64,000 nucleotides of DNA from a bacterium. Lineage in GTDB: Bacteria; Patescibacteriota; Microgenomatia; Levybacterales; UBA12049. Below are positions 12,819 through 59,071 of the stretch, piece after piece. The translations under genes were made by a program, and so were the position numbers. Where the stretch lies: NCBI GenBank assembly GCA_021813145.1, contig JAKALS010000005.1:8022-72021 (forward strand), given 5' to 3'. Each line of letters starts with the position of its first letter. Position 1 is the stretch's first letter. Under the pieces are notes generated by a model that did no database searches, had not been told where the DNA came from, and saw only the letters and a program-made list of their open reading frames with translations.

Positions 12819-12853
12819 TGGCTTAAGTATAGTCTTAAATAATTAATTGTCAA

Positions 12854-17251: not shown

Positions 17252-17400
17252 AAAGGCAGTTTTAGGTATCCTGAATTTGCGGGTACTATAATTATACTAA
17301 TGCAACTACATATTTGAGTCAAGAATTTTACCTCTTTCTTACAAGATTTTTCCCCTCTTTAAATATTCTGTTTTTATACTCGCTGTTAAGAAGGTGTAGT

Positions 17401-18844: not shown

Positions 18845-18860
18845 GAGCCAATTATACTCT

Positions 18861-19565: not shown

Positions 19566-19607
19566 AGACAAAGATTATACAACTTGTTGTAAAATAAAAA
19601 AACGGTT

Positions 19608-29927: not shown

Positions 29928-30217
29928 TGCTTCTTTTAAGAAAATTTAAAATCCTCGGGCATTCGATGGAACCACTGATTAATAACGGAAACGAAGTTGT
30001 TGTAAGTTTTATCCCTTATTTTTTTAAAAAACCCAAAACGGGAGATATTGTAGCTTTTAAAAAAAAACAGGAAATATTTATAAAAAGAGTTGTAAAAGAA
30101 AAAAACGGGGAATATTTTGTTGAAGGAGATAATAAAAAGGACAGTTTAGACAGCAGGAGTTTCGGTTCCGTCAAGATTAATGATATTATAGGTAAGGTAA
30201 TTTATATAGTGAAATGA
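29927..30217 (+). CDS. sodX: S26-family signal-peptidase-like Ni-SOD maturation protease
   Basis: GHSMEP (Ser nucleophile region) and GDNKKDSLDSRSFG (S26 box E-like). Its ATG overlaps the sodN stop (TAATG). Confidence 0.7.
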   Translation: MLLLRKFKILGHSMEPLINNGNEVVVSFIPYFFKKPKTGDIVAFKKKQEIFIKRVVKEKNGEYFVEGDNKKDSLDSRSFGSVKINDIIGKVIYIVK

Positions 30218-35356: not shown

Positions 35357-35364
35357 TTGTGAAA

Positions 35365-36618: not shown

Positions 36619-36634
36619 TATAATTATTTTTTGC

Positions 36635-37948
36635 ATGATAAAAAAATATTTAAACAGAAAATATCTGCCCGAGTTTCTCATTTTTTTCTTCGCCTTATTT
36701 ACGAGATTTTTCAGGCTCGATGTCCCCAAAAATTATATTTTCGACGAGGTTTATCATGCTTGGACGGCGGGGCAAATGTTTATGGGTAATCCGGCTGCAT
36801 GGGAGTGGTGGAATACTCCTCCGGCCGGCGTTGCCTATGAATGGACGCATCCTCCTTTGGCAAAAGAGTTCATGGTTTTGGCAATTGCCGCTTTTGGTAA
36901 TAACAGTTTTGCGTGGAGATTTTTTTCTGCCCTTTTCGGGTTCGGAGTAATAGTTCTTATTTATCTAATTGCCTACAAGCTTTTTAAAAGCAGGACAATA
37001 GCGCTTTTTGCATCTTTTGCGGCCTCTTGCGACGGGCTTTTGCTTGTAATGTCAAGAATAGGGATGAACGATATGTATTTCCTGTTCTTTGCGATGCTTG
37101 CTTTTCTTTTCTTTCTTAACAAGAAGAATTTTCTTATGGCAGTTTCCTTGGGTTTGTCGGTTGCCTCCAAGTGGACGGGGTTATTTGCCGTAGGCATATT
37201 GGGAATTATTTTTCTTGCAGAGCTTTCGCTTTTGCTAAAGAGGAAAAAAATAAAACAAAAAGAGGCTCTTAAAAAAATAATTATTTCGCCTATTTATTTT
37301 ATCCTTATTCCCTTTATTATCTATCTTCTTGTTTATCTCCCGTTTTTTACAGGACACCATACTCCTCCCGGGGAACAGCCGTCGCCTTTTAACGTAAATA
37401 CTTTTATAGGACTTCAGGAGCAGATGTATTGGTATCACACCGATTTAAAGGCAACACATCCGTACCAGTCCGTACCGGTGCAATGGGTTTTTGATTTAAG
37501 ACCTGTATGGATTTATGTAAATTATTCAGGAAGTACGATTGCCAATATATACAACCTCGGAAACCCTCTTTTTATGTGGTTCGGGTTAGCTGCCATGATT
37601 TTTCTTTTATTTGATTACATTAAGGAAAGAAATTTAAATCAGGGAATAGTTATTTTTTCTTATCTTGCTTTTTTTGTCCCGTGGGCGGCCTCTCCAAGAA
37701 TCATGTTTTATTATCATTACCTTCCTGCAGTTCCTTTTTTGGCGATTGCTACGGGGTATGTTCTAAATAAATTATTTGCTTCCTCTTCGGGCAGAATTGT
37801 AGTGGCGGTTTATCTTTTTACTCTTGTTGCTTTGTTTATTTACTTTCTTCCTTTATGGACGGCAATACCTGTTCCCAAATGTCAGATTCCGGGACCTAAT
37901 TGTACCAGCTGGTATGATTCCTTCTTCTGGCTCCCGAGTTGGAAATAA
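36635..37948 (+). CDS. GT39/PMT-family (ArnT-like) membrane glycosyltransferase
   Basis: N-terminal loop FDEVYHA (the DE motif of GT-C PMT/ArnT) and a PPLAKEF loop. Multi-TM. Confidence 0.7.
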   Translation: MIKKYLNRKYLPEFLIFFFALFTRFFRLDVPKNYIFDEVYHAWTAGQMFMGNPAAWEWWNTPPAGVAYEWTHPPLAKEFMVLAIAAFGNNSFAWRFFSALFGFGVIVLIYLIAYKLFKSRTIALFASFAASCDGLLLVMSRIGMNDMYFLFFAMLAFLFFLNKKNFLMAVSLGLSVASKWTGLFAVGILGIIFLAELSLLLKRKKIKQKEALKKIIISPIYFILIPFIIYLLVYLPFFTGHHTPPGEQPSPFNVNTFIGLQEQMYWYHTDLKATHPYQSVPVQWVFDLRPVWIYVNYSGSTIANIYNLGNPLFMWFGLAAMIFLLFDYIKERNLNQGIVIFSYLAFFVPWAASPRIMFYYHYLPAVPFLAIATGYVLNKLFASSSGRIVVAVYLFTLVALFIYFLPLWTAIPVPKCQIPGPNCTSWYDSFFWLPSWK

Positions 37949-37955
37949 ACTAAAA

Positions 37956-39161
37956 ATGAAAAAATTGGAGAGTTTTTTAAAAAGCAATAAAAACTCTTTG
38001 CCCCTTTTTTTGGGAACTCTTTTGGTATACGCACTGTCAGGAAATGGAAAAGGAGCCTATTACAATTATTATGTACTTCTTTCTCAAGCGTTCCTCAGGG
38101 GAGATTTATATGTCAGCCAACACCCAGCTTGGCTTAATGAATTGGTGCTGTTTGGCGGACACTATTTTGTCGTATACCCACCAATGCCGGCAATACTTCT
38201 GATGCCGTTCGTCTTTATTTTCGGGTCTTCCTTTTCCCAGCCTTTACTATCCGCCATTTTGGGTGCTTTAAGTGTGACCGCTTCATATTTTGTTATTAAG
38301 AAATTATTTAAGAGAAAGACAGCTTTTTTTATGACCGCTCTTTATGCTTTCGGTACTATGGAATGGTTCCACGCCTCGGTGGGTTCCGCTTGGTATATAG
38401 GCCAGATAGCGGGAATGCTTTTTATTTGGCTTTCGCTTTTAGAACTATTGACTAAAAAGAGACTGTTTTTTGTGGGATTTTTTATTGGACTGGCCTACAC
38501 TTCAAGATTGCCTACAATCCTGGCCTTGGTTTTTGTCCTCTTATATTCTTTTGAGGATTTTATAATCTTAAATAAAAATAGAATAAGGTTAAATCTTAAA
38601 AATTGTTTTTTATTCGGATTGGGATTTTTGCCTGCTTTATTATTCGAGGCAATTTATAACTTTTTAAGATTCGGGGTCTTTTACGACGCAGGTTATTTTT
38701 TGCTTTATAGAGCAGCTGAATTTAATGAGCCTTGGTATAAATTCGGTTATTTCAGTATAAGATATATTCCGGTACATCTAAATGAAATTTTTACCGCCTT
38801 GCCCAAATTTATTCCAACTCCTCCATATGTTATTCCGTCTATTTTTGTTATGGCCCTTTGGTTTGTCACGCCTGCATTTTTAATTATTCCCTTCGCAGAT
38901 TACAAAAAAAGACTTGCGGTAACCTCTTTGGTTACTGTTTTAATTATGTCTTTGCCTGGACTTTTGCATGGAGGCAATGACTTTACTCAATTTGGGTACA
39001 GAAATTCTTTGGATTACCTTCCCTTTATGCTCTTTCTTGTGGCAAGCGCCTTCGAGAAAGAAAAGCTGCAAAAAATAGGGATTGTTCTTATTTTGTTAAG
39101 TATTATTGTTAATCTTTGGGGCGTTGTAATGATTAACTTCTTGAATATTTGGGTTATTTAA
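37956..39161 (+). CDS. GT-C fold membrane glycosyltransferase, third in a row
   Basis: Multi-TM protein with a PMT_2-like layout. Start taken at ATG 37956, after the upstream stop. Confidence 0.55.
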   Translation: MKKLESFLKSNKNSLPLFLGTLLVYALSGNGKGAYYNYYVLLSQAFLRGDLYVSQHPAWLNELVLFGGHYFVVYPPMPAILLMPFVFIFGSSFSQPLLSAILGALSVTASYFVIKKLFKRKTAFFMTALYAFGTMEWFHASVGSAWYIGQIAGMLFIWLSLLELLTKKRLFFVGFFIGLAYTSRLPTILALVFVLLYSFEDFIILNKNRIRLNLKNCFLFGLGFLPALLFEAIYNFLRFGVFYDAGYFLLYRAAEFNEPWYKFGYFSIRYIPVHLNEIFTALPKFIPTPPYVIPSIFVMALWFVTPAFLIIPFADYKKRLAVTSLVTVLIMSLPGLLHGGNDFTQFGYRNSLDYLPFMLFLVASAFEKEKLQKIGIVLILLSIIVNLWGVVMINFLNIWVI

Positions 39162-42536: not shown

Positions 42537-44195
42537 ATGCCTAGGGATTTTTTAAAGAGAAGTCTTGGTCTGCTACTTCGACAACAAAATAACATAATTT
42601 CGGCCGCTTTTGTCATAATGGCGACAATTATTTTTTCCCAGGTTTTGGGACTTGTCAGACAAAGGCTTCTTGTGGGAATATTCGGAGCGTCAAATACCCT
42701 AGGGGTCTATCTTGCTTCGACAAGGATGCCCGATTTCCTTTTTCAGATTATAATAGCGGGAGCCCTCTCCTCGGCTTTTATTCCCGTTTTTTCCGAGTAT
42801 CTGGGTAAAGGTAAAAATGAGGAAGCCCATAAGCTGGGGTCAACCTTACTTTTGGTGGCCCTTGCAATTTTTACCGCATTTTCCCTGGTGCTTTTCATAT
42901 TCGCAAACGACTTTTCAAAAATGCTTGCCCCGGGATTTTCCGCAAAGCAAATAGAGCTTATGGCGAATCTTACAAGAGTAATAATATTCGGAGAAATTCT
43001 TTTTATTTTAGGAAGTTTTCTTTCCGCGATTCTCCAGTCTTATAACCATTTTTTTATTCCCGGAATAGCGGCAGCTATGTTTAACCTCGGAATAATTATC
43101 GGGATTGTTATTCTTTCTCCTTTTGTCGGAATCTTTTCCGCAGCCTGGGGAGTCGTTATCGGAGCATTCATATTCGTGATTGTCCAACTGCCTCTTATGA
43201 AAAACGTTGGTTTTTCTTTTAAGCCTACATTTTCCTTAAAAACAGGAGGAGTTATGGAGGTATTAAAGCTCATGTGGCCAAGAACTATTTCTATCGCAAT
43301 TTTTCAGGTAGGTACCCTTATAACCGTAACTCTGGTTTCTTTTCTTCCCAATCCCGGCAGAAATTATGTAATTTTCGATTACGCCCAGACACTTGCTTTT
43401 GCCCCCGTAGCACTTTTTGGCCAGGCAATAGCTCAAGCATCCTTTCCGGTTCTCTCCAAGGAAAGGGAAAAACTTTCCGATTTTAAAACAACTTTTATAA
43501 CAAGCTTTAACCAGATGCTTTACCTTGTTCTTCCTATTTCGGCTCTTCTTTTGGTATTAAGGATCCCCGTAGTAAGGCTCATATACGGGGCTTCGCAATT
43601 CGACTGGGCAGCTACCGTTTTAACCGGAAGGACTCTCGCGTTTTTCAGCATCTCCATTTTCGCCCAGGCTCTTGTCTATCTTGTGTCAAGGGGTTTTTAC
43701 GCCCTTCACGATACGAAAACACCACTTACCGTCGGAGCTCTGACGACAGGACTTATGCTTTTGATTGGCGCTCTTTTTATTTTTATTTATCATTACGGAA
43801 TAGAAAGTATCGCCGTTGCCTATTCCATAGGCAGTATTTTAAATATTATTATCCTGTTTTTGTTTTTGGACAGAAAGGTCGGAGGTTTTGACAAAAAACC
43901 TCTTCTTATATCACTTTCAAAAATAACCATAGCGACCGTATTTACGGGTTTTGCCCTGTATATTCCCATAAAGCTTTTGGACCAGCTGGTTTTTGACACG
44001 ACGAAAACAGTAAATCTCATTTTGCTTACGGGAATATCCAGTTCTGCAGGGCTTTTGCTTTATCTTTTTCTCACGTGGTTTTTTAACGTCGAAGAAGCAA
44101 AAACTTTTATACTGATGTTCAAAAAACTGGGGGACTGGAGACAGATTCTTATGGGAAGCGAAGAGATAATAGACGGAAAACCCTTCAACCCTTAA
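42537..44195 (+). CDS. murJ: lipid II flippase MurJ (MviN)
   Basis: 14-TM MOP-superfamily profile with a MurJ-type N-terminus (…RQRLLVGIFGAS…). Confidence 0.85.
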   Translation: MPRDFLKRSLGLLLRQQNNIISAAFVIMATIIFSQVLGLVRQRLLVGIFGASNTLGVYLASTRMPDFLFQIIIAGALSSAFIPVFSEYLGKGKNEEAHKLGSTLLLVALAIFTAFSLVLFIFANDFSKMLAPGFSAKQIELMANLTRVIIFGEILFILGSFLSAILQSYNHFFIPGIAAAMFNLGIIIGIVILSPFVGIFSAAWGVVIGAFIFVIVQLPLMKNVGFSFKPTFSLKTGGVMEVLKLMWPRTISIAIFQVGTLITVTLVSFLPNPGRNYVIFDYAQTLAFAPVALFGQAIAQASFPVLSKEREKLSDFKTTFITSFNQMLYLVLPISALLLVLRIPVVRLIYGASQFDWAATVLTGRTLAFFSISIFAQALVYLVSRGFYALHDTKTPLTVGALTTGLMLLIGALFIFIYHYGIESIAVAYSIGSILNIIILFLFLDRKVGGFDKKPLLISLSKITIATVFTGFALYIPIKLLDQLVFDTTKTVNLILLTGISSSAGLLLYLFLTWFFNVEEAKTFILMFKKLGDWRQILMGSEEIIDGKPFNP

Positions 44196-46042: not shown

Positions 46043-47251
46043 TTAGAGTGCGAAGAAAAGAAGTATTCCTGCTACCGAGATTATTGTTCCTATTATGCCG
46101 GCAGCCATTATTTTGTCACTGGGTCCTGTTGCCGGAAGAGTTTTTCCGGGCGTAGGCGTAGCCTGGGCCAACAATGTAGGAACGGGAGTTGCGTTTATTG
46201 TTATCGTCTGCGTGCATGTGGAAGTATCACTTACATTGCCAATATTATCCGTAAGCTGCGCGGTCGCCGTAAAGGTTCCCGAACTGTTGTATGTATGGGA
46301 AGCCTGAACGCTTACAGAACTGCTGCCTATCCCGCCGGTAGAGGTAATATCCTGTGTGGCGCTGTCTCCGTAGTTGAATGTTACTTTATTTATTGTATTA
46401 GCCGAAGAAGTTCCGGTTGCGGTGAAAGTTAATGTATAGGGGGCAGTTCCCGTCGCAGGGCCCGAAAGTGTAAGGCTTTGGCAAACTGGAGCCTGTCCAT
46501 TAACTGTGGGAGTAGGAGTTGGGCTCTCAGTTGGAATTGGCGTAGCCGTAGGCGCGGGGGTAGGCGTGGGTGTGGGAGTAGGGGTAGGAGTAGGGGTGGG
46601 TGTGGGAGTAGGTGTAGGAGTAGGGGTAGGCGTCGGACTTGCGGAAGGAGTAGCCCCCTGGTTGATTGTTATATTTGCCGGGCTGACTGTCGAGAGGACA
46701 TTTTCGTTAAACTGGTCGGTCGAAGCAATCGAGAGAACTTGTGTCTGAGACGTAAAAGTTACCTGTGTGGGAGCCGCATCCGTCGGGGCAATTGCCTGAA
46801 ATGCGATAGTCCCTATTTTTGTGGTCGTTTGTACTATATTCTGGGGGCTTCCTCCTATTGAAAGGGTAACGGATACCGTTCCCGGTCCGTATACCGGACC
46901 TTGAAGCACCGACGGAAAGGCTACTACATTAGGACACAAAGCATCGTCGGGTTTTGCTGGACATACGGCTGGACCCGCAGCCGCTGTAGCCAATTTTGTC
47001 GGGTCGTAATTTATTACCATTTTTACAAAAGACACCTGATTTGAACCCGGATTCATCATAATGTCGAGGTTGACAGGATCTCCCACGTTTACGGTTGTTG
47101 CCTGCGGATTGAAGCCCAAGGTTGTAGACTTTTGTGCGCTGGATTGGGTTTTCTGCTGTTGTTGCACAAGATAAACAGTCAGGGGAATAATAACAAGCAG
47201 GACTGCAATAAATCCGAATAACAGCAATTTTTTGCCCGATGGTAAGGACAT
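46043..47251 (-). CDS. cell-surface protein with (PT)n linker and C-terminal LPATG plus hydrophobic anchor (sortase-substrate-like, no basic tail)
   Basis: (PTPT)x12 linker and a terminal [19 protein letters not shown]. Confidence 0.6.
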
Positions 47252-49403: not shown

Positions 49404-50255
49404 ATGAGAAGGCTTCTTTTTATTGTCGTTCCTGTCCTTTTGGCAGTTTTAATTTTTGCCGTTATTTTTATTTTAATCAACAAAAACTCGGCCCCCGGCG
49501 CTTTACAGGTAACGTCGTCTCCCATAAGTAAAGTTTATCTTGACGGAAAACTGATAGGTCAGACCCCTCTTTGCAGATGTCAGGGAAGCGATATGATTTC
49601 TTCGGGAAATCATACTTTAAGACTTGTCCCCACGCAGGGAAACTTTGATCCCTTTGAGGAACAAATAACAGTTACGCCCTCCGTTCTTACGGTTGTCGAC
49701 AGAACTTTCGGACAGGGAGCATCCTCCCAGGGCTCTATAATAAGCCTTTCTCCGATACAGGATAAGACTGCCGCGCAACTTCTTATTGTTTCTTTTCCCG
49801 ATAATGCCCGGGTTAGTCTTGACAGCAATCCGTCGGGAAATACCCCATTACTTTTGCAAAATGTTACGCCTTCGGATCACGATATTCAACTAACCAAAGA
49901 CGGTTATGTGAGTAAAACGGTAAGAGTAAGGGCGGTACCGGGCTATAAACTCGAGGCAATCGTGTACCTCGGGGTAAACCTTACCACCGCAACCTCTTCC
50001 GCCCTTTTGTCGGCCAGTCCTTCGGCAAGCCCTGCACCCACTCCCTCGACAACAGTAACGGTTACAATTCTTCAGACTCCTACGGGATTTTTAAGAGTAA
50101 GAAGCGAACCTTCCTTGGGAGGAACGGAAATAACTCAAGTTAAACCCGGAGATAAATACCCGTTTGTTTCGGAGCAATCCGGATGGTACGAGATAAAACT
50201 TAATAACGGACAAACCGGCTGGGTAAGCGGCCAGTATGCGCAAAAATCCTCTTAA
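49404..50255 (+). CDS. membrane-anchored protein with two PEGA domains and a C-terminal bacterial SH3 domain
   Basis: VTSSPISKVYLDGKLIGQTPL and ARVSLDSNPSGNTPLLLQ (PEGA-like). C-terminal GFLRVRSEPS...GWYEIKLNNGQTGWVSGQY (SH3b). Confidence 0.65.
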   Translation: MRRLLFIVVPVLLAVLIFAVIFILINKNSAPGALQVTSSPISKVYLDGKLIGQTPLCRCQGSDMISSGNHTLRLVPTQGNFDPFEEQITVTPSVLTVVDRTFGQGASSQGSIISLSPIQDKTAAQLLIVSFPDNARVSLDSNPSGNTPLLLQNVTPSDHDIQLTKDGYVSKTVRVRAVPGYKLEAIVYLGVNLTTATSSALLSASPSASPAPTPSTTVTVTILQTPTGFLRVRSEPSLGGTEITQVKPGDKYPFVSEQSGWYEIKLNNGQTGWVSGQYAQKSS

Positions 50256-51196
50256 GGGCCTACAAAATATACGATAACAATTACCAGAAAAGCCCAAAGG
50301 GTAACCGTAAAAAGAAGGGGTATGTCGGATAAAAGGACTCTTTCCGGACTTTCACCTTCATTTTTTTCGTAAATATCCTGGAGATATCTCATAAGTCCGT
50401 AAACTACGGGAATTATTGTTATCATCAGCCATTTCCTCTGGAAAAAAGTAGGGAGAAAATCGGGCATAAAAACACCAAGGGCGAGTTTGAATCCTCCGGG
50501 GTTTTCAAGGAACGTAAATAGGGAGTAAGAAACGAATGTCGAAGTGGCAAAAATCGAGGCGTAAACATCAAGGAGCCTTTCGGAATAATGAGAAAGGGAC
50601 TTACGGGTAGAAGCAATATCATTTTCTTTGTCCCCCGATAAAAGTGTGAGCTCAGACCTTCTTTTGCCTATAGCCAAAAACAGCGAGATAGATATGGTCG
50701 TGAGCAAAAGCCATACGGATATATGGAATCCGCTTGCAAATTCTCCTCCGTAAACTCTTAGTATATAACCAGTAGCGATTAGAAGAATATCCAAAACGGC
50801 TACCGATTTTAAGAAGGAGGAATAAAGGAATTGGATTATTAAATAACTAAGTACCAGGGCAAAAAATGCCGGAGTAATTTCTCTTGCGACTATAAAGGAA
50901 AATACAATAAGAAAAGCGGCAAGTCCTATTGCAAACGGGACGGGAACGTCGCCATGGGCGAGAGGCCGGAATTTTTTAAAAGGATGTACCCTGTCTTTTT
51001 TTATGTCAAAAAGGTCGTTTATTATATAAGTTGCTGACGAAAGTCCGCAAAATACAAAGAATCCGAAAAGAACCTTTATAAAAACCGGCGGGTCAAAAAG
51101 TTCCCCGGCAAAAGTTATGGCGGCAAAAATCGCGAGGTTTTTTATCCATTGCCTGGGCCTTAATAATCTTAGTGTATTAAATGCCAGTTTTATCAT
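50252..51196 (-). CDS. UbiA-family prenyl-phosphate phosphoribosyltransferase (decaprenyl-phosphate phosphoribosyltransferase-like)
   Basis: LRPRQWIKNLAIF (the RPRQWxKN signature of DPPR synthases) and NDLFDIKKDRVHP (UbiA NDxxDxxxD). Confidence 0.7.
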   Translation of the reverse strand: MIKLAFNTLRLLRPRQWIKNLAIFAAITFAGELFDPPVFIKVLFGFFVFCGLSSATYIINDLFDIKKDRVHPFKKFRPLAHGDVPVPFAIGLAAFLIVFSFIVAREITPAFFALVLSYLIIQFLYSSFLKSVAVLDILLIATGYILRVYGGEFASGFHISVWLLLTTISISLFLAIGKRRSELTLLSGDKENDIASTRKSLSHYSERLLDVYASIFATSTFVSYSLFTFLENPGGFKLALGVFMPDFLPTFFQRKWLMITIIPVVYGLMRYLQDIYEKNEGESPERVLLSDIPLLFTVTLWAFLVIVIVYFVGP

Positions 51197-52256
51197 TGTT
51201 GCGTCTTATAAAGAGCTGCAGGAAAAGTATAGCTCCTCCTGCAATAATAACAAGCATTATTATTGCGAAAAGTTTACCCTTGCTTGATAAAACAAGAGAC
51301 AACGCACCCAATATAGCAGAAACAGTCCAATAAAACAACGCGATACGCCTATGCCCGAATCCCAAATCCAAAAGTAGATGGTGGAGGTGTTTTTTATCGT
51401 GCCAAAAAGGAGAATGTCCGGTTGCTATTCTTCTGGCAATCGTAAAAGCTCCGTCCGTCATGGGAACTCCCATAACAAGAATTGCCGTTGCGAGTTTTGC
51501 TCCCGAAAGTATGGAGGCAACCGCCAAAAGAAGATATATAGCAGTTGCGCCGTATCCCGGAAATATTTTAGCGGGATAAAAATTGAAAATAAGAAAACCT
51601 AAAGATGCTCCCGCTATTATAAAAGAGAGAGTTGCGCTCATGAGGCTGTACTGGTCCAGAACCGGAAAACGGAGACTTAAGATTCCGATAATTATTGCAG
51701 AAATTGCCACAATTCCCGGCATCTGCCCGTCTACACCTTTGCTCCAATTCAACATGTTCATAACCCAGACTATCCAAAGAACGGCAATAAAATAAGAAAA
51801 AAAAGTAAGTTCGAAATTATTGAGAAAGGGAAGTTTTAGGGTATTCAAAAAAAGTATTCCCCCGAAAGGGTTAGTTATAAAAGGAATATTTACCCCGGCC
51901 CATACGACCACAACTGCGGAAAATATATTGATAACAAACCGGAAATACGGAGAAATGTCGTATTTGTCGTCGAACGTCCCTATTAAAAGACAAATTAAGG
52001 CAGCGCCGTAAATCGCAATCGTAATTTTTACGATAGGTAAAAATATCAGGCTTGTAAGTAAAACTCCGATAAAAAGGGGGATCCCCCCTCCTCTTGGAAT
52101 CGGCTTGCTGTGGACAACCGCGGGATGTTTATGGGTTTTAGGGTCATCCATTATGCCCCATTTTCTTATAAAAACAAGAGAAACGGGGGTGGCGATAACA
52201 GTAAAAATAAAAGCGGCAAGAAGAGGGAAGACAATAGTGTTTAAAGGATTAAACAT
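51177..52256 (-). CDS. GT4 polyprenyl-phosphate sugar-1-phosphate transferase (WecA/MraY family)
   Basis: 10-11 TM helices, MNMLNWSKGVDGQ (NxxNxxDGxDG-like), and a cytoplasmic loop HPAVVHSKPIPRGGG. Confidence 0.7.
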   Translation of the reverse strand: MFNPLNTIVFPLLAAFIFTVIATPVSLVFIRKWGIMDDPKTHKHPAVVHSKPIPRGGGIPLFIGVLLTSLIFLPIVKITIAIYGAALICLLIGTFDDKYDISPYFRFVINIFSAVVVVWAGVNIPFITNPFGGILFLNTLKLPFLNNFELTFFSYFIAVLWIVWVMNMLNWSKGVDGQMPGIVAISAIIIGILSLRFPVLDQYSLMSATLSFIIAGASLGFLIFNFYPAKIFPGYGATAIYLLLAVASILSGAKLATAILVMGVPMTDGAFTIARRIATGHSPFWHDKKHLHHLLLDLGFGHRRIALFYWTVSAILGALSLVLSSKGKLFAIIMLVIIAGGAILFLQLFIRRNNDKTGI

Positions 52257-52258
52257 TT

Positions 52259-52612
52259 TTATAAAACTATCTGTATAGTTCTTACAACAAAAAGCATGGT
52301 AAGAATGGCGACGATAAGACTTATAACGGCAAGAAGTCTCGAGACGAGGGGCGTCTTTTTATAAAGAACGGAAGATACGATTATGTTAACGATAAGGATA
52401 AAAAATGAGATGACAGTAGGAATAAAAACTCCCCAGGTCGGGGCAAGCCTCGGCGTTCCCCACGGCAGTTGGTTATAAACCGGCATAAAAGGCGGAAGCC
52501 CCTTATAATTTATCAGTATGTAGGGAAGCGGGAGGATTATAAGGATAATTGTTGTCAGGAAACCTCTAAAAGTGAGCTTGTCCTGCCTTATATCACTAAA
52601 GAACTCTTTCAT
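52259..52612 (-). CDS. small 3-4 TM membrane protein, operon member
   Basis: 117 aa. Its start overlaps the upstream GT-C gene. Confidence 0.4.
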   Translation of the reverse strand: MKEFFSDIRQDKLTFRGFLTTIILIILPLPYILINYKGLPPFMPVYNQLPWGTPRLAPTWGVFIPTVISFFILIVNIIVSSVLYKKTPLVSRLLAVISLIVAILTMLFVVRTIQIVL

Positions 52613-54080
52613 ATATTAAAACGTTATCGATTTCAATTTTTTCTTTGTAGTTAACAAGAGAAAAGGGAATGGGTCCGACGTTTGGCATGATAACAATAAA
52701 TTTCGGTTTTTTCAATGCTATTGCATTTTGTGTATTTGAGACTCCGTCCGGGTAATCTTCTACGTGATAAGCAACCGCATATTTTCCCGGAGGAAGTTTG
52801 TCCGTAAGTTTATAAAGCATAGCGTTGTTTCCCCAGAGAAATATCGAGTCTTTTTTTGTGGTATTTGCATTTATAAAGGCGGCAACTTCGTATGTAACGG
52901 GAGTTCCTCTGTCAAAAAAATTCTGATATGCCGTAACGCTTTCCCGTCCCAAGACAAACGAAGTAAAATTGACATAATAAGCCGCAAATTTATCGTAGAA
53001 CCAAAAATTCTTCAATACCAAAAATAAAGTTATAATTGCAACAACGGACGTGATAACCTTAAGTTTCCTGTCATAAAAAATAAAACCCAACAAAAGAACA
53101 AATGCGGGTAGCATATTCAGAAGGTAATGGGTGTAAGGTCTTTGGGAAAAGAAAGAATTAAAAAGGGAAAAAGCAAACCAACTCCATATAAATATCGCCG
53201 TCTTATCCAGCGAATGTCTTCTTGCATAAAGATAAAGACAGAAAAGGCCCAGTAAAATTATTTTGAGTATCAAGAAACCTTGGGGAATTATAAGTTTATT
53301 TCCGTAGCCGACATATCCGATATTGGAGAAAAATGTCGCTTTTAAAAAGGGTGAAATAGCGCCTTCAAAAAAGAAGAAAAGTACGGTAGCAAGAATCGGA
53401 ATTGCAAAGCCGAGAGTAAAAGGTACCATTTTTATAATTTCCGCTTTTAGCTCTTTTACTTTTAACAATTTTTTAAGATAAAATTCTTTGTCGGTTAAAG
53501 CGATAAATACAAAGAACGCCGCAAAATCAAAAACTGCAACTATTTTAAAAAGAAATGAAACGCCGAGTAAAAAACCTGCGATAAATTGTATTTTGTATTT
53601 GTTATTCAGTATTTTTTCATCGATAGATTTTAAGATAAAGAGGGCTGCGATAACGGTGGGGAGAAGCATAAAATTTTCTGCATTTGCTATGTTCCCTTCG
53701 ATAATCGGGAGACCGAAAAGAACGGCATAAAGCCCGGTAGCAAAAAATATTATTTTGTCTCTGTTAAAAAGTTTCTTTGCCAGGAAATAGAAAATAATTA
53801 CACTTAAAAGTCCTACAATCAGCGAGAAAAGTCTGACGTAAAACTGGTCGGAATTAAACAGGCTATATACAAAATATAAAAGCGGCGGTTTGTTATCCCA
53901 GATATCCCTGTATAAAAGCCTTCCCTGATCCATCGCCATCCCTAAAACCTGATATATCCCTTCGTCGCCGTACCAATAGGGTTCAAAAAGCGACGGGAGC
54001 CTTAACAGAAAAAAGAAAAAAGAGGTAAAAAGAAGAAACCAAAATTCTTTGCTTCTTTCAAGCCTTTGTAATAAATTCAT
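52596..54080 (-). CDS. GT-C fold membrane glycosyltransferase (PMT_2/ArnT-like)
   Basis: YWYGDEGIYQ first-loop DE motif, about 12 TM helices, and a C-terminal soluble domain. Confidence 0.6.
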   Translation of the reverse strand: MNLLQRLERSKEFWFLLFTSFFFFLLRLPSLFEPYWYGDEGIYQVLGMAMDQGRLLYRDIWDNKPPLLYFVYSLFNSDQFYVRLFSLIVGLLSVIIFYFLAKKLFNRDKIIFFATGLYAVLFGLPIIEGNIANAENFMLLPTVIAALFILKSIDEKILNNKYKIQFIAGFLLGVSFLFKIVAVFDFAAFFVFIALTDKEFYLKKLLKVKELKAEIIKMVPFTLGFAIPILATVLFFFFEGAISPFLKATFFSNIGYVGYGNKLIIPQGFLILKIILLGLFCLYLYARRHSLDKTAIFIWSWFAFSLFNSFFSQRPYTHYLLNMLPAFVLLLGFIFYDRKLKVITSVVAIITLFLVLKNFWFYDKFAAYYVNFTSFVLGRESVTAYQNFFDRGTPVTYEVAAFINANTTKKDSIFLWGNNAMLYKLTDKLPPGKYAVAYHVEDYPDGVSNTQNAIALKKPKFIVIMPNVGPIPFSLVNYKEKIEIDNVLIYERVL

Positions 54081-54099
54081 ATTTTTAGCTTATCACAAA

Positions 54100-55593
54100 T
54101 CAAAGTTTTTCGGTAACTTTATATTCGAGCCTTTTTCCGAGCATCAGCTGGGTGTGTGAAATGAGTGCCGGTAGGGCGGAAAGGAAAAAACCGACTATGG
54201 GTAAAAGTAAAAATTCGAGCGGGAAAAGGAGTTGTTTTGTCTTTGTGGGAGCGGCTGCTTTTGGCCTGTTCCTAAAGTCTATGATTATCATGCTAAAAGT
54301 CGCAAAAAGGCAAAGTGTAAGAATAAGTCCCGCAAGCTTCGGAAGGTTGTAGCCTAGCGTAGTTCTTGAAAAAACAGGATTAACAAAGGGCATGATATTT
54401 GCCGCAATAGTGATAATAAACCACTGTACGGGCCATAAAAGATGGTCCATCAAAACGTTATAAATCATCATTGTTTTTCTGAAAAAAGGAACGTTTGGAA
54501 CCGTTAGCCACCATTTAATAAACAGTCCGTCGTCCGATACTCCCCATGACCAGCGTCTCTCCTGGTTATACTTGTTTTTAAGGCTGTTCATATAACTTGA
54601 CGAAAGAGGAGCATCCATGGAGGTCTTTAAAAATATCGGCGACATCCAGATGTTCCCCGACTTTTTATAGAATGCCTTAAAAAATATCCGGTAATCCTCG
54701 GGTATTACGTCCGTATCCCAATAATCAATGTCGTGGAGGAGTTTGAATGAAAGCGAATAGGTGGAATTTGAAATAAGTCTGTCGCCCTGGACCAAAAGAC
54801 CGGTTCTCCAAAGGCTTCCGAAAAATGCAATAATCCTGACGGGAGCGGGAACGCTCCAGAAATTGTTATAGTTCACGTTTGCCGACTGCCAGAATTTATT
54901 GTATTTTTTCGGATCTCTTAAGAACTCATAGCTTAGATAGGAAAAATATTGTTTATCGAAGATCGAGTCTGCGTCAACGGAAGAAATTGTAGCGTAATCG
55001 ATGTCTATTTTCCCGCTATCTACGAGCCTTTTATAAGCTAGTCTGCCTCCGTACGCTTCGTTGGACGATTTTCCTTTTACTTCTCCCGATAAATCGGGGT
55101 GAAAGCTTGCAAAGATATCGCCGAAAACATTTTTAAATTCTTTTATGAGGATTTCCGCTTTTTCCTTGCCCGATTGTTCGCGTTCTTCCATTGCAAGTAC
55201 AACGAAGATCCTTTTTGTAGGGAACGTCTGAATTGCGAGGCTTCTTATAGTTTCCCTTAATTTATCGACGTTTTCCTTATAGTTGGGGATTACCACAATA
55301 TGCGAGACTTTTTCGAAATCTTTAAGTTCTTTCGCTTCTTTAAGCCAGTTCTTTCTTTCTGCCTTTTGAATTCTCTGGGAAGAAATAAAGGCAGTTATGA
55401 CAAGAGAAAAGGATTTATAGAACCAGTAGACGTCAAAAAAAAGAATAAAATAGGCAAGGACAAGCGGTATAAAAAAGGAGCCCCATAGGGGAAAGAGTAT
55501 CAGGGTCCAGGAAACAAGTCCCGGCATAATCTCCAAAGCTCTTTTTGTTTTTATGGGGTATCTCGAAAAAATCTTAGAAAAAAAATTTGTCAT
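54100..55593 (-). CDS. membrane-embedded processive GT2 glycosyltransferase (cellulose/chitin-synthase-like)
   Basis: IVVIPNYKEN, the DAD (DxD) motif, and QERRWSWG (QxxRW), flanked by TM helices. Confidence 0.75.
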   Translation of the reverse strand: MTNFFSKIFSRYPIKTKRALEIMPGLVSWTLILFPLWGSFFIPLVLAYFILFFDVYWFYKSFSLVITAFISSQRIQKAERKNWLKEAKELKDFEKVSHIVVIPNYKENVDKLRETIRSLAIQTFPTKRIFVVLAMEEREQSGKEKAEILIKEFKNVFGDIFASFHPDLSGEVKGKSSNEAYGGRLAYKRLVDSGKIDIDYATISSVDADSIFDKQYFSYLSYEFLRDPKKYNKFWQSANVNYNNFWSVPAPVRIIAFFGSLWRTGLLVQGDRLISNSTYSLSFKLLHDIDYWDTDVIPEDYRIFFKAFYKKSGNIWMSPIFLKTSMDAPLSSSYMNSLKNKYNQERRWSWGVSDDGLFIKWWLTVPNVPFFRKTMMIYNVLMDHLLWPVQWFIITIAANIMPFVNPVFSRTTLGYNLPKLAGLILTLCLFATFSMIIIDFRNRPKAAAPTKTKQLLFPLEFLLLPIVGFFLSALPALISHTQLMLGKRLEYKVTEKL

Positions 55594-56375
55594 ATGTTAA
55601 AAATTTTTCCGGCGTTTTCGGTTGTCACAGAATTAATTTTATCAAAAGAAACACCTTTGATACCGGCTATAAATTCGGCCGTAATTATAACATAGGAAGG
55701 CTCGTTTCTGCTACCTCTATGGGGTACGGGGGTAAGCCAGGGTGCATCCGTTTCGGTTATAAGCCTTTCCAAAGGAGAGTATTCTACAAGGTCTCTTAAT
55801 GGAGTATCTTCGCCCGGAGCGATACCTTTATATGTGATATTTCCGTCAAAGCCGACGTAAAACCCGAGGTTAAGCACTTTTTTAAGGTAATCTAAGTTTC
55901 CGGACATGCAATGAAACATTCCGGGAATATCCGGCAATTCTTTTCTATAGGAAGAAAGAATATCTATTATGTCCGAAGCTGCTCTTCTTGAATGTATCTG
56001 CAAAGGCATCCTCTTTTTTATTGCAATCTGCAACTGCTTTTCAAAAATCTTCTTTTGAATTTTGGAGTCTACGTCGTTATGGGCAAAATAATCCAGGCCT
56101 ATTTCTCCGATTCCTATCACCTTCTCTTCGTTTAGAAGTTTTTCAATTTCCTTTTCCCAACCGTCTTCAACGCTATTTGCGTCATGGGGATGTATGCCTA
56201 CTACCGCATAAAAGTTTGCATTGTTTTTTGCCAGTTCGACGGCTTTTCTGCTTGTTTTAAGATCTGTCCCCACGTTGACAATTTTTTCGACTCCCTTTTT
56301 TTCGGCTCTTTTAACAACCTCATTAAAATCATTTTCGTACCCGGGATAATTAAGATGGCAATGCGCATCTATCAT
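55590..56375 (-). CDS. tatD: TatD family metal-dependent hydrolase
   Basis: MIDAHCHLN plus the downstream His/Glu/Asp ligands of the TatD fold. Confidence 0.85.
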   Translation of the reverse strand: MIDAHCHLNYPGYENDFNEVVKRAEKKGVEKIVNVGTDLKTSRKAVELAKNNANFYAVVGIHPHDANSVEDGWEKEIEKLLNEEKVIGIGEIGLDYFAHNDVDSKIQKKIFEKQLQIAIKKRMPLQIHSRRAASDIIDILSSYRKELPDIPGMFHCMSGNLDYLKKVLNLGFYVGFDGNITYKGIAPGEDTPLRDLVEYSPLERLITETDAPWLTPVPHRGSRNEPSYVIITAEFIAGIKGVSFDKINSVTTENAGKIFNI

Positions 56376-56477
56376 GAATTTATTATAACAATTAAACGCC
56401 CCCTCTCAAAGCTGATTCTTGCGTAATTCTTACAAAAATCTAACGGTTTAATCATAGTTTGAGTTCATTATAGGAGC

Positions 56478-58279: not shown

Positions 58280-58513
58280 ATGGAAGACTTTGACCAGCTG
58301 ATAAATATGGCAATAAAGGTTTGCCAGACAAGAAATTACGTTACCCCGAGAATTCTCCAGAGAGCCCTAAAAACGGATGCCGCAAAAGCGGAAACGGTAT
58401 TTTCCGAGCTTGAAAAAATGGGAGTACTCTCTTATTTTTGGGCGAAAGAATACGAGGGATTACAGGTAAGTAAAGTCGACAGGAAAAAACTGAGGGAATT
58501 TTTAGTGAACTAA
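58280..58513 (+). CDS. standalone FtsK-gamma-like winged-helix protein
   Basis: YVTPRILQRALKTDAAKAETVFSELEKMGVLS resembles the FtsK gamma domain ([29 protein letters not shown]). Confidence 0.5.
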   Translation: MEDFDQLINMAIKVCQTRNYVTPRILQRALKTDAAKAETVFSELEKMGVLSYFWAKEYEGLQVSKVDRKKLREFLVN

Positions 58514-59071
58514 ATCTTCAAGTTTTAGTATTTCCTTCCAGTTTTTCCAGTTAAGTCTCCTTTTTTCTTTTACGGACCCGTTGTAGGGCATTTCATAAAG
58601 AATGTGTTCCCAGTAAGGTTTTCTTACGCCTTCGGGTTGCGGTTTATCGTCTATTAGGTAATCTCCAAAGACGAGAGTCTTATCTTTAGTAAGAATAGTC
58701 CTTTTTACCCACTCATAACCCAGATTTTTTTCGACCCAAGCGTATTTCTCCAAAACACAATTTTCGTATTGGTGTATAAAACTGGTGCATATAAAAACTT
58801 CATGCCCCATTTCCGTCATTTCTTCTATGGCTTCCTTTCCGCCCGTCACTAAGGGGAGATTTTCAAAAAATCCTACGGAAGTGAGTATTCCAAATATCTG
58901 TTCTTTCAATTCTTTCGGATACTGTTCATGGATATAAAAAGTGCTTCTTCTTTCAAGAGGTATATAAAAATGTCCGGGGTATTTTTTTCTGAATTTTGTA
59001 AGAAATTCCCCTTCGTAATCCGCAAGGACATTGTCCATGTCAACAAGAATTATTTTTTTATTTTTATCCAT
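58502..59071 (-). CDS. HAD-superfamily 5'(3')-deoxyribonucleotidase (NT5C-like)
   Basis: ILVDMDNVLAD (HAD DxDxV motif I) and NT5C-family length and pattern. Confidence 0.7.
   Translation of the reverse strand: MDKNKKIILVDMDNVLADYEGEFLTKFRKKYPGHFYIPLERRSTFYIHEQYPKELKEQIFGILTSVGFFENLPLVTGGKEAIEEMTEMGHEVFICTSFIHQYENCVLEKYAWVEKNLGYEWVKRTILTKDKTLVFGDYLIDDKPQPEGVRKPYWEHILYEMPYNGSVKEKRRLNWKNWKEILKLEDLVH

What the first reader, a model, noticed from the sequence alone, without database searches (positions are those of the whole stretch)
50252..56375. Minus-strand operon: tatD, processive GT2, GT-C, small TM protein, WecA-like GT4, and a UbiA gene with the DPPR-synthase motif; an arabinogalactan-like glycopolymer pathway?
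Six genes are packed with 4-20 nt overlaps (55590/55593, 52596/52612, 51177/51196) and carry a complete glycopolymer-assembly logic. The GT4 polyprenyl-P sugar-1-P transferase is an initiator, the QxxRW/DAD GT2 (QERRWSWG) is processive, the GT-C uses polyprenyl-P-sugar donors, and the UbiA protein's LRPRQWIKN plus NDxxDxxxD is the hallmark of decaprenyl-phosphate 5-phosphoribosyltransferase. In mycobacteria that enzyme makes the DPR/DPA pentose donor consumed by GT-C arabinofuranosyltransferases. Co-occurrence of these four enzyme classes in one operon outside Actinobacteria is not something I know to be described. DprE1/E2-like epimerases are not in the window, so the donor may be a ribosyl lipid.
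Basis: partly seen in the sequence, partly recalled or inferred. Interest (0 to 1): 0.75.

Follow-up and report, generated by a model that had tools for sequence, protein, structure and literature searches.

The report
Conserved CPR lipid-linked pentose glycan operon
An uncultivated Levybacteria (CPR/Patescibacteria) genome carries a very strongly conserved operon for building a cell-surface sugar polymer from lipid-linked sugars, including a ribose lipid made from PRPP. The enzyme classes are all known, but this combination has unusual features and no description of it turned up.

Summary
The UbiA protein is a polyprenyl-phosphate phosphoribosyltransferase (PPPRS). It passes an NCBIfam equivalog cutoff, matches only Rv3806c in the PDB, and keeps all 11 Rv3806c ligand residues. 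The GT2 folds like hyaluronan and cellulose synthases. The GT-C resembles polyprenyl-P-sugar transferases (ALG3, PMT, ArnT) more than Emb or Aft enzymes.

The order tatD–GT2–GT-C–3TM–GT4–UbiA holds in about 80 Levybacteria species. UbiA and GT2 are as conserved as GroEL.

The claim that this is undescribed outside Actinobacteria is wrong. PPPRS plus GT-C "three-component" pentofuranose systems are published for Gram-negatives, Gram-positives and phage.

New here:
- The small TM protein is fused to the GT4 in sister CPR lineages.
- This GT4 clade lacks two canonical Asp residues.
- This GT4 clade co-occurs almost strictly with the GT2 and the PPPRS.
- Sister lineages carry a Wzy_C–TPR ligase-like gene where Levybacteria carry the GT-C.
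- No epimerase, phosphatase or GtrA homologue lies near any of about 160 loci.

tatD is probably a passenger of the metG–tatD pair. The most likely product is a ribose-decorated, synthase-made envelope glycan.

The parts
56382..56409 (-). Promoter-like site (TTGAGA, 16 nt, TG-TATAAT). Its -10 hexamer ends 6 nt before the tatD ATG, so this is a possible start of the operon transcript, which might be leaderless.
   Evidence: 11 of 12 matches, extended -10. This is a consensus match only and is not evidence of function.
55590..56375 (-). tatD/YabD-family metal-dependent hydrolase (261 aa). It overlaps the GT2 start by 4 nt. It is probably a passenger from the ancestral metG-tatD pair.
   Evidence: PF01026 E 1.5e-80 and TIGR00010 271 bits. 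MetRS lies directly upstream of tatD in many Levybacteria and sister-lineage loci. tatD-GT2 adjacency is kept in 23 sister loci.
54100..55593 (-). Integral-membrane GT2 synthase (497 aa). It has two N-terminal TM helices, a GT-A domain and C-terminal TM helices. Motifs: E107, D207-A-D209, E299-D300 and Q344-xx-R347-W348.
   Evidence: The AF2 model has pLDDT 78.3. The best PDB folds are hyaluronan synthases and BcsA over the full length. The motifs are invariant in 37 homologues and in 34 sister-lineage homologues. Pfam scores are below threshold in my scan; a precomputed PF13632 hit is listed.
52596..54080 (-). GT-C glycosyltransferase (494 aa). It has an invariant E33-P-x-W-Y-G-D39-E40-G loop after TM1 and a C-terminal alpha/beta domain of about 110 aa.
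52259..52612 (-). 3-TM protein (117 aa) with a conserved loop (LPxxxPxYxxxPWG). It is a partner module of the GT4, and in sister CPR lineages it is fused to the GT4 N-terminus.
   Evidence: No Pfam family. It is conserved in 75 loci. An HMM built from it matches, at full length, the N-termini of at least 24 GT4 homologues of 470-520 aa. One of these is from a candidate division WWE3 bacterium.
51177..52256 (-). WecA-like polyprenyl-phosphate HexNAc-1-P transferase (PNPT, 359 aa) of an atypical clade. D96-D97-xx-D100 and H290-L-H-H293 are kept. K173 replaces WecA D156, and Y235 replaces the Mg-site Asp (WecA D217, EcMraY D267).
   Evidence: PF00953 E 5.9e-25. WecA TIGR02380 scores 93.6 bits, well below the cutoff of 326. 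Alignment with E. coli WecA and MraY is. K173 and Y235 are invariant in 75 orthologues. The role of the Asp is taken from PMC5039524.
50252..51196 (-). Polyprenyl-phosphate 5-phosphoribosyltransferase (PPPRS, DPPR-synthase type, 314 aa). It overlaps the GT4 end by 20 nt.
   Evidence: PF01040. NF008978 scores 223.5 against a cutoff of 207, and NF008977 scores 233.7 against 234. The PDB search matches only 8J8J/8J8K Rv3806c. R13, K19, Y57, N60, D64, K74, R77, Q122, Y125, K130 and Y144 correspond to Rv3806c R22, K28, Y70, N73, D77, K87, R90, Q135, Y138, K143 and Y157 (PMC10994848).
49404..50255 (+). Convergent neighbour: a membrane-anchored PEGA + SH3_3 surface protein (283 aa). It is syntenic at the end of the cluster in Levybacteria and in sister lineages. 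A functional link is not shown.
   Evidence: PF08308 and PF08239. It is present in 79/81 Levybacteria loci and 16 sister loci.

Best explanation
This is a core envelope-glycan module of a Levybacteria (CPR) cell.

Shown by homology, conserved residues and synteny:
- The UbiA-family enzyme is a PPPRS. At the cytoplasmic face it should join PRPP to polyprenyl phosphate to give polyprenyl-P-ribofuranose-5-P.
- The GT4 is a WecA-like PNPT that works together with the 3-TM protein.
- The GT2 is a hyaluronan/cellulose-synthase-like polymerase-translocase.
- The GT-C is an outer-face transferase of the kind that uses polyprenyl-P-monosaccharide donors.

Inferred:
- The PNPT primes a polyprenyl-PP-HexNAc. 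Its nucleotide-sugar loop is WecA-like.
- The GT2 extends and exports a glycan, following the logic of the synthase-dependent WecA/WbbF/WaaL pathway.
- The GT-C adds a pentofuranose from the PPPRS product to that glycan or to another envelope acceptor.
- The sugar is probably ribose rather than arabinose, because no epimerase is nearby.
- tatD is co-transcribed baggage from the metG-tatD pair.
- The final glycan may be fixed to peptidoglycan by the LCP ligase encoded 15 kb away.
For: - PPPRS identity: with PMC10994848.
- GT2 fold and motifs.
- Precedent for PPPRS + GT-C: PMC11127046, and the plasmid loci.
- Operon conserved in about 80 species. Median identity is UbiA 71%, GT2 71% and GT4 67%, against GroEL 69% and MetRS 63%.
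- Beyond Levybacteria, the DGQ-type PNPT has this GT2 upstream in 30/32 testable loci and the PPPRS downstream in 30/32. For canonical PNPTs the figures are 1/18 and 2/15.
- Fusion of the 3-TM protein to the GT4.
- Synthase-dependent precedent: PMC2841628.
- An LCP gene is in the window.
Against: - No biochemistry exists for any of these proteins.
- The GT-C is absent from the sister-lineage clusters that keep GT2, GT4 and PPPRS. The PPPRS-to-GT-C link therefore rests on Levybacteria synteny and on precedent only.
- No 5-phosphatase, epimerase or GtrA/SMR/MATE flippase is found next to the PPPRS in about 160 loci, unlike the published three-component systems.
- The PNPT lacks two Asp residues regarded as catalytic or Mg-binding in MraY and WecA. 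Its reaction may differ from that of WecA.
- The GT-C profile shows no sequence similarity to the GT-Cs of two reference PPPRS loci.
- The QxxRW region of the GT2 model has low confidence.
Confidence: 0.5

Rival explanations
1. The GT-C acts as a ligase or oligosaccharyltransferase. It transfers the finished polyprenyl-PP-linked glycan (primed by the GT4, built by the GT2) en bloc to its final acceptor, which could be a protein such as a pilin or surface protein, a lipid, or the wall. This is the job done by the Wzy_C-TPR protein in sister lineages. The PPPRS product is then used by another GT-C encoded elsewhere.
For: The distribution is complementary. The window-type GT-C is in 75/81 Levybacteria loci and in essentially no sister cluster. 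The Wzy_C-like gene is in 22 sister clusters and in 0/80 Levybacteria loci. Foldseek's best hit is the archaeal OST AglB. The window holds two further GT-C genes that could use the ribosyl lipid.
Confidence: 0.2
2. One reading: an arabinogalactan-like pathway. Polyprenyl-P-ribose is epimerised to polyprenyl-P-arabinofuranose by DprE1/E2 homologues encoded elsewhere, and the GT-C builds an arabinan on a GT4-primed, GT2-made backbone.
For: The same enzyme classes occur as in the mycobacterial cluster: WecA, a processive GT2, UbiA, GT-C and LCP. PPPRS loci with DprE1/E2-like genes exist outside Actinobacteria.
Against: No DprE1/E2-like gene is in the 64-kb window, in the 10 kb beyond its high-coordinate end, or within ±8-9 kb of the PPPRS in about 160 loci; the same search recovered the PPPRS as a positive control in 114-115 loci. 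The GT-C is not close to Aft or Emb. The GT2 is HAS-like, not GlfT2-like. No Glf is seen.
Confidence: 0.1
3. The PPPRS and the atypical PNPT act in series on one lipid. The PNPT transfers HexNAc-1-P onto the 5-phosphate of polyprenyl-P-ribose-5-P, giving a ribose-5-diphospho-HexNAc primer. The HAS-like GT2 then extends this primer.
For: The Asp-less PNPT clade co-occurs strictly with the PPPRS, and the two genes overlap by 20 nt. No 5-phosphatase is present. The acceptor and metal site of the PNPT is remodelled, with D to K and D to Y changes.
Against: This is inference only, and no such reaction is known for a PNPT. In sister lineages, response-regulator or other genes separate the GT4 from UbiA.
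Confidence: 0.1
4. The genes are neighbours through inherited synteny in small, streamlined genomes and do not form one pathway.
For: tatD, metG, groEL, lepA and murJ are syntenic here too, and they have no role in glycan synthesis.
Against: The genes have overlapping, translationally coupled ends. There is a gene fusion between the 3-TM protein and the GT4. A specific PNPT clade co-occurs with the GT2 and the PPPRS across lineages where the surrounding genes differ. All five products act on polyprenyl-linked or membrane glycan chemistry.
Confidence: 0.05

Closest known systems
Three-component pentofuranose glycosylation systems: PPPRS + flippase + GT-C (GT136), as in Citrobacter youngae O1/O2 and the P. 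aeruginosa TfpW pilin D-Araf pathway (Kelly et al. 2024, PMC11127046)
   Same: Both have an Rv3806c-type polyprenyl-P phosphoribosyltransferase encoded next to a GT-C enzyme. With no epimerase, the expected sugar is ribofuranose. Both add the sugar outside the cytoplasm.
   Different: There is no fused or neighbouring 5-phosphatase and no MATE, SMR or GtrA flippase in the cluster. The GT-C has no detectable sequence similarity to the GT-Cs of two reference loci. The PPPRS is bound more tightly to a PNPT and a synthase-type GT2 than to the GT-C. The module is a core, GroEL-level conserved operon rather than a variable serotype accessory.
Mycobacterial arabinogalactan/DPA pathway (WecA, GlfT2, Rv3806c UbiA, Rv3807c, DprE1/E2, Aft/Emb GT-Cs, Lcp1)
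   Same: The enzyme classes match, and the UbiA enzyme keeps every Rv3806c ligand residue. An LCP ligase is encoded in the same window.
   Different: No DprE1/E2 or PAP2 phosphatase is nearby. The GT2 is an integral-membrane HAS/BcsA-type synthase rather than GlfT2. The GT-C is closer to ALG3, PMT and ArnT than to Aft or Emb. UbiA identity to Rv3806c is modest (E 1.8e-36).
Synthase-dependent O-antigen assembly: WecA initiation, WbbF synthase, WaaL ligase (summarised in PMC2841628)
   Same: A PNPT initiator sits beside a HAS-like processive GT2. In sister CPR lineages a Wzy_C (WaaL-family) ligase-like protein is also in the cluster.
   Different: CPR cells have no outer membrane or lipid A, so the acceptor is unknown. 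A PPPRS is an added constant member. The PNPT is an Asp-less variant with an extra 3-TM module. Sequence relatedness to WbbF was not tested.
WecA/TagO/MraY PNPT superfamily
   Same: PF00953 is matched. The DDxxD, NxxN, xGxDGx and HxHH motifs are present, and loop 5 (RRxxxGxSPFxxDxxHxHHL) is WecA-like.
   Different: K173 replaces WecA D156, and Y235 replaces the Mg-site Asp of the (F/L)MGD motif. The protein scores far below the WecA equivalog cutoff (93.6 against 326). It has a dedicated 3-TM partner that is fused to it in relatives.

Membership tests
DPPR synthase / PPPRS (Rv3806c type, UbiA superfamily) | UbiA-superfamily membrane fold | tested here: met
   PF01040 E 9.4e-22, 77.9 bits against a cutoff of 34.2.
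DPPR synthase / PPPRS (Rv3806c type, UbiA superfamily) | Scores as the curated equivalog rather than as heme-O, menaquinone, ubiquinone or DGGGP prenyltransferases | tested here: met
   NF008978 scores 223.5 against a cutoff of 207, and NF008977 scores 233.7 against 234. All other UbiA equivalogs score at most 56 bits, except PRK08238 (174 against 351). The PDB search hits only Rv3806c.
DPPR synthase / PPPRS (Rv3806c type, UbiA superfamily) | Mg/pyrophosphate site: N73, D77, R22, K87, R90, Y138, K143 | tested here: met
   All are identical: N60, D64, R13, K74, R77, Y125, K130. They are invariant or conservatively replaced (K to R) in 30 sister-lineage homologues. Residue roles are from PMC10994848.
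DPPR synthase / PPPRS (Rv3806c type, UbiA superfamily) | Phosphoribose-specific residues not shared with prenyltransferases: K28, Y70, Q135, Y157 | tested here: met
   K19, Y57, Q122 and Y144 are identical.
DPPR synthase / PPPRS (Rv3806c type, UbiA superfamily) | PRPP-dependent transfer of ribose-5-P to polyprenyl phosphate | not testable with these tools
   This needs an enzyme assay, for example farnesyl-P + PRPP as in PMC11127046.
Three-component pentofuranose system (PMC11127046) | 5-phosphoribose phosphatase (HAD PRP domain or PAP2) fused to or next to the PPPRS | tested here: not met
   UbiA is 314 aa with no extra domain. No homologue of the Lactococcus HAD-IB phosphatase is in the window or in about 160 loci. 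The NT5C HAD gene at 58502-59071 is syntenic in only 1/81 loci. The rest of the genome was not searched.
Three-component pentofuranose system (PMC11127046) | Dedicated MATE or SMR/GtrA flippase in the cluster | tested here: not met
   There is no GtrA homologue. The only small TM protein is a PNPT module. A MurJ/MOP gene at 42537-44195 is syntenic but is most simply the lipid II flippase.
Three-component pentofuranose system (PMC11127046) | GT-C enzyme of the GT136 type next to the PPPRS | tested here: inconclusive
   A GT-C is in the operon. hhalign against the GT-Cs of two PPPRS loci gives no match. The ORF12/GT136 sequence itself was not available.
Mycobacterial DPA/arabinogalactan pathway | DprE1 (FAD oxidase) and DprE2 (SDR) epimerase pair | tested here: not met
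   The pair is absent from window 1-64000, from the 10 kb beyond its high-coordinate end, and from all related loci. The whole genome is not testable here.
Mycobacterial DPA/arabinogalactan pathway | Emb/Aft-type arabinofuranosyltransferase | tested here: not met
Processive membrane GT2 synthases (HAS/BcsA/chitin-synthase type) | D, DxD, (T)ED and QxxRW motifs | tested here: met
   E107, D207xD209, E299-D300 and Q344xxR347W348 are invariant in 37 and in 34 homologues.
Processive membrane GT2 synthases (HAS/BcsA/chitin-synthase type) | GT-A domain flanked by N- and C-terminal TM helices that form a channel | tested here: met
   In the AF2 model (pLDDT 78) the best full-length PDB matches are Chlorella virus and Xenopus HAS and BcsA, with E 6e-8 to 1e-6 and TM-scores up to 0.57. 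The QxxRW segment is modelled with low confidence.
Processive membrane GT2 synthases (HAS/BcsA/chitin-synthase type) | Pfam family membership at the curated threshold | tested here: not met
   The best hit is PF13641 at E 0.012, 16 bits against a cutoff of 27. A precomputed PF13632 hit is on record.
PNPT (WecA/MraY, PF00953) | Family HMM and the DDxxD polyprenyl-P/Mg motif | tested here: met
   PF00953 scores 88.5 bits against a cutoff of 27. D96-D97-K-Y-D100 aligns with WecA D90-D91-R-F-D94.
PNPT (WecA/MraY, PF00953) | Mg-site/catalytic Asp of the (F/L)MGD motif (EcMraY D267, WecA D217) | tested here: not met
   The motif reads IFPG-Y235-GAT. Y235 is invariant in 75 orthologues, and the position is F or Y in the sister clade. 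The role of the Asp is from PMC5039524.
PNPT (WecA/MraY, PF00953) | First Asp of NxxNxxDGxDGL (WecA D156) | tested here: not met
   The motif reads NWS-K173-GVDGQ. The position is K or N in this clade and D in canonical relatives.
PNPT (WecA/MraY, PF00953) | WecA equivalog score | tested here: not met
   TIGR02380 scores 93.6 bits against a cutoff of 326. mraY scores 33 against 192.

The most novel reading that the evidence does not exclude
A CPR-specific lipid-linked primer chemistry. The PPPRS makes polyprenyl-P-ribose-5-P. The Asp-less, 3-TM-assisted PNPT then uses the 5-phosphate, rather than polyprenyl-P, as its acceptor for HexNAc-1-P. The HAS-like synthase extends and exports this ribose-phosphate-bridged primer. 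This would explain three things together: the missing phosphatase, epimerase and flippase; the remodelled PNPT active site; and the near-obligate GT2-PNPT-PPPRS triad, which is conserved at the level of GroEL in Levybacteria, WWE3 and related lineages.
Probability: 0.1. Interest if true: 0.85.

Novelty: new variant of a known kind. Interest (0 to 1): 0.6.

Why it matters
CPR/Patescibacteria make up a large share of bacterial diversity, yet their envelopes are almost uncharacterised. This operon is as conserved as GroEL across about 80 Levybacteria species, and its GT2-PNPT-PPPRS core extends to WWE3 and other lineages. That points to an essential, lineage-wide surface glycoconjugate built partly from PRPP.

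It gives concrete, expressible targets:
- a PPPRS without its usual helper enzymes;
- a PNPT that lacks the Asp residues thought necessary for Mg-dependent catalysis;
- a 3-TM module found both split from and fused to that PNPT.

These targets can be used to test how PNPTs work and what CPR cell walls contain. The operon also extends the recently defined pentofuranose-lipid pathways to a new part of the tree.

Tried and rejected
- PDB sequence searches for the GT2 and the GT-C found nothing at E<=1, so fold searches were needed.
- The 3-TM protein has no Pfam match even at E<=10. I first took it for a GtrA/SMR-like flippase. The fusion to the GT4 and the absence of any GtrA similarity make that unlikely.
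- I considered the NT5C HAD phosphatase (58502-59071) as the missing 5-phosphatase and rejected it, because it is syntenic in only 1/81 loci.
- Genes inserted between UbiA and the PEGA gene in some relatives are unrelated cargo, such as toxin-antitoxin pairs and a methyltransferase.
- I rejected the idea that the GT4 is the cell's MraY. WecA-type loop 5, the NCBIfam scores and the alignment all argue against it.
- An hhalign of the GT-C profile against the GT-Cs next to the PPPRS on Lactococcus and Chondrinema plasmids found no relation.
- One contig look-up returned only a 3.6-kb fragment.
- Literature searches for this system in Patescibacteria/CPR found nothing.
- My first motif classification used wrong column indices. 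It was redone with regular expressions.

Full report
**Observation.** One search shows six co-directional minus-strand ORFs at exactly the stated coordinates:
- tatD, 55590-56375
- GT2, 54100-55593
- GT-C, 52596-54080
- a 117-aa membrane protein, 52259-52612
- GT4, 51177-52256
- UbiA, 50252-51196

The overlaps are 4, 17 and 20 nt, and the other two junctions are gaps of 19 and 2 nt. The quoted motifs are present. A strong promoter-like site with an extended -10 ends 6 nt before the tatD ATG. The window is the reverse complement of a 123.6-kb ENA metagenome contig. Its relatives are named Candidatus Levybacteria/Levyibacteriota, within Patescibacteria.

**UbiA.**
- It matches PF01040.
- It scores 223.5 bits on the NCBIfam equivalog NF008978 for decaprenyl-phosphate phosphoribosyltransferase (cutoff 207) and 233.7 on NF008977 (cutoff 234). 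Heme-O, ubiquinone, DGGGP and chlorophyll synthase models score at most 56 bits.
- In the PDB it matches only Rv3806c (8J8J/8J8K, E 1.8e-36) and no other UbiA-family structure.
- Mapping the residues that contact PRPP, Mg2+ and decaprenyl-P in the Rv3806c structure paper (PMC10994848) onto the alignment gives identity at all eleven positions. This includes K28, Y70, Q135 and Y157, which bind the phosphoribose and are stated there not to be conserved in prenyltransferases.

**GT2.**
- Pfam scores are below threshold. A precomputed PF13632 hit exists.
- An AlphaFold model built from 37 homologues has pLDDT 78.3 and pTM 0.79.
- Its best PDB matches run the full length: Chlorella virus and Xenopus hyaluronan synthases and bacterial cellulose synthase BcsA.
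- E107, D207xD209, E299-D300 and Q344xxR347W348 are invariant.
The QxxRW segment itself is modelled with low confidence.

**GT-C.**
- It hits PMT_2 and PMT. Its model has pLDDT 88.6.
- Foldseek finds AglB, ArnT, OST and PMT.
- It is a genuine GT-C, closest to enzymes that use polyprenyl-P-monosaccharide donors. It is not specifically Emb- or Aft-like.
- An invariant EPxWYGDEG loop follows TM1.

**GT4.**
- It matches PF00953 and is closest to WecA, but far below the equivalog cutoff (93.6 against 326). mraY scores 33 bits.
- I aligned it with E. coli WecA and MraY. It keeps DDxxD (D96, D97, D100), the NxxN asparagines, D176 and a WecA-like loop 5 (RRxxxGxSPFxxDxxHLHHL).
- K173 stands where WecA has D156. 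IFPG-Y235-GAT stands where WecA and MraY have VFMG-D-xGS.
- That Asp (EcMraY D267, Aquifex D265) lies at the Mg2+ site and is described as catalytic (PMC5039524).
- Both replacements are invariant in 75 orthologues.

**Synteny in Levybacteria.** A scan of one genome per species with UbiA returned 80 loci, nearly all labelled Levybacteria or Patescibacteria.
- The order tatD-GT2-GT-C-3TM-GT4-UbiA, followed by a convergent PEGA/SH3 gene, is kept throughout.
- Median identities to the window proteins are UbiA 71%, GT2 71%, GT4 67%, GT-C 51%, 3TM 44% and tatD 54%. For comparison, GroEL is 69%, MurJ 70%, LepA 64% and MetRS 63%.
- MetRS often lies directly upstream of tatD. From general knowledge, the same metG-tatD pairing occurs in Bacillus (metS-yabD). 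tatD is therefore best read as a passenger.

**Beyond Levybacteria.**
- An exhaustive search of 1.8 billion representative proteins with the GT4 found many relatives of 470-520 aa carrying an N-terminal extension.
- An HMM of the 117-aa protein matches those N-termini at full length in at least 24 clusters. One of them is from a candidate division WWE3 bacterium. The small protein is therefore a module of the PNPT that is split off in Levybacteria.
- The nearest PNPT clade carries S[KN]GVDGQ and PGYG/WGFG motifs. More distant relatives carry the canonical DGxDGL and MGD/LGE motifs.
- I scanned metagenome contigs with an alignment of the fused proteins. DGQ-type PNPTs have this GT2 family immediately upstream in 30 of 32 testable loci and the PPPRS downstream in 30 of 32. 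For canonical PNPTs the counts are 1 of 18 and 2 of 15.
- In those sister clusters the window-type GT-C is absent. Instead, a 185-aa membrane protein and a Wzy_C (O-antigen-ligase family) protein with TPR repeats follow UbiA. Neither has a homologue in the window or in the Levybacteria loci.
- The PPPRS ligand residues and the GT2 motifs stay invariant there.

**What is missing.**
- Pfam-annotated gene lists cover the whole window and 10 kb beyond its high-coordinate end. They show no FAD-oxidase/SDR pair, no PAP2, no GtrA/SMR and no GtrB-type GT2.
- I ran tblastn with a DprE1-like and a DprE2-like protein from a Bacteroidota plasmid, and with a HAD-IB phosphatase and a GtrA protein from a Lactococcus plasmid. 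It found nothing in the window or in about 160 loci. The PPPRS controls hit 114-115 loci.

**Comparison with what is known.**
- Kelly et al. 2024 (PMC11127046) describe widespread three-component systems. A PPPRS, usually with a phosphatase, works with a MATE or SMR flippase and a GT-C (GT136) to add alpha-pentofuranoses outside the cytoplasm. Optional epimerases are present. Examples come from Gram-negatives, a Bacillus and a phage. The P. aeruginosa TfpW pilin arabinosylation pathway is older.
- PPPRS homologues occur on plasmids of rhizobia, Vibrio, Legionella, cyanobacteria, Bacteroidota, haloarchaea and Lactococcus.
- The Lactococcus plasmid locus has a putative GT-C, the PPPRS, a HAD phosphatase, GtrA and an LCP gene. 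The Chondrinema locus has the PPPRS, an FAD oxidoreductase, an SDR and GT39 proteins.
- So the co-occurrence of a PPPRS and a GT-C outside Actinobacteria is established.
- The trio of PNPT, HAS-like synthase and Wzy_C ligase matches the synthase-dependent O-antigen logic (PMC2841628).
- No paper in the searchable library connects any of this to Patescibacteria.

**Interpretation.** The best-supported model is an envelope-glycan module.
- The PNPT, with its 3-TM module, primes a lipid-linked HexNAc.
- The synthase-type GT2 polymerises and exports the glycan.
- The PPPRS supplies a ribofuranosyl lipid.
- In Levybacteria, the operon's GT-C transfers that pentose on the outer face.
- An LCP ligase at 34259-35356 is available for attachment to the wall.

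Homology, catalytic residues, synteny, the fusion and the co-occurrence are shown. Substrates, reaction order and the acceptor are inferred.

The main uncertainty is the GT-C. Its distribution is complementary to that of Wzy_C-TPR, which suggests it could instead be the final ligase. Its fold neighbours favour a monosaccharide-donor transferase. A bolder reading is that the PNPT acts on the 5-phosphate of the PPPRS product. That would account for the missing helper enzymes and the remodelled active site, but it has no direct support.

**Verdict.** What is new is a CPR-wide, highly conserved variant of known lipid-linked glycan pathways, built around an atypical PNPT.

Noticed in passing
window 34259-39161 (+): This is a second envelope cluster. 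It holds an LCP (LytR_cpsA_psr) ligase at 34259-35356, a 417-aa protein without a Pfam family at about 35365-36618, and two further GT-C genes at 36635-37948 (PMT, PMT_2, PMT_4TMC) and about 37956-39161 (PMT_2). These are candidate partners for attaching or decorating the glycan made by the operon.
   Followed up: partly
window 46043-47251 (-): A 402-aa surface protein with a PKD domain, a long (PT)n linker and a C-terminal LPATG motif followed by a hydrophobic tail. This is a sortase-substrate signature, implying Gram-positive-style anchoring to the wall. The gene is syntenic in 58 of the related loci.
   Followed up: no
window 51177-52256 (GT4) and relatives P0361-P0510: A whole clade of PNPTs lacks the two canonical Asp residues, with K or N for WecA D156 and Y or F for the MGD Asp. 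It keeps DDxxD and HLHH. The Lys could stand in for Mg2+, but this is unexplained.
   Followed up: partly
L091, L095, L101, L105, L108, L118, L119, L125, L126 (downstream of UbiA): Sister CPR clusters carry a 185-aa membrane protein (MFSKxLxKLIDxAIVP...) on the opposite strand, plus a Wzy_C O-antigen-ligase-like protein with TPR repeats (400-650 aa). A response regulator often lies between the GT4 and UbiA. One locus (L121) has a pilin-like protein with an N-terminal methylation motif there.
   Followed up: partly
L011 2569-7944: One Levybacteria genome (RIFCSPHIGHO2_01_FULL_37_17) lacks the GT-C between the GT2 and the 3-TM gene. Just upstream of tatD it has a 430-aa PMT_2 protein and a DUF2079 membrane protein.
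   Followed up: partly
window 42537-44195 (+): A MurJ/MOP-family flippase (MurJ, Polysacc_synt_3 and a weak MatE hit) is syntenic with the cluster in 46 loci and 70% conserved. It is most simply the lipid II flippase. It is also the only candidate flippase of the MATE-related superfamily near the PPPRS.
   Followed up: no
window 56375-56409 (-): The -10 element of the best promoter-like site ends 6 nt before the tatD start codon. If the site is real, the operon mRNA would be leaderless or nearly so.
   Followed up: no
window 8330-19571: A block of glycan-turnover genes: two adjacent GH130 phosphorylase-like proteins (13492-17251), GH18 (11239-12390), an NAGPA-family protein (8330-9526) and a PIG-L deacetylase (18861-19565). 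An ABC-2 exporter pair lies at 20774-22332, and a small protein with a weak Wzt_C domain lies at 5558-6091.
   Followed up: no
L007, L010, L013, L015-L018 and many others: Many GenBank MAG records titled 'uncultured Gammaproteobacteria bacterium' carry this Levybacteria-type locus at 65-81% protein identity with full synteny. The organism labels of those records look wrong.
   Followed up: no
L086 (Lactococcus cremoris plasmid pF27D, 5584-10647): A dairy Lactococcus plasmid carries what looks like a complete three-component pentofuranose system. It has a 462-aa unannotated membrane protein, a PPPRS, a HAD-IB phosphatase and GtrA, next to an LCP gene, an O-antigen-ligase-family gene and a flippase.
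   Followed up: no
window 29451-30217 (+): A nickel superoxide dismutase (Sod_Ni) is followed directly by an S26/S24-type peptidase gene (presumably its maturation protease).
   Followed up: no
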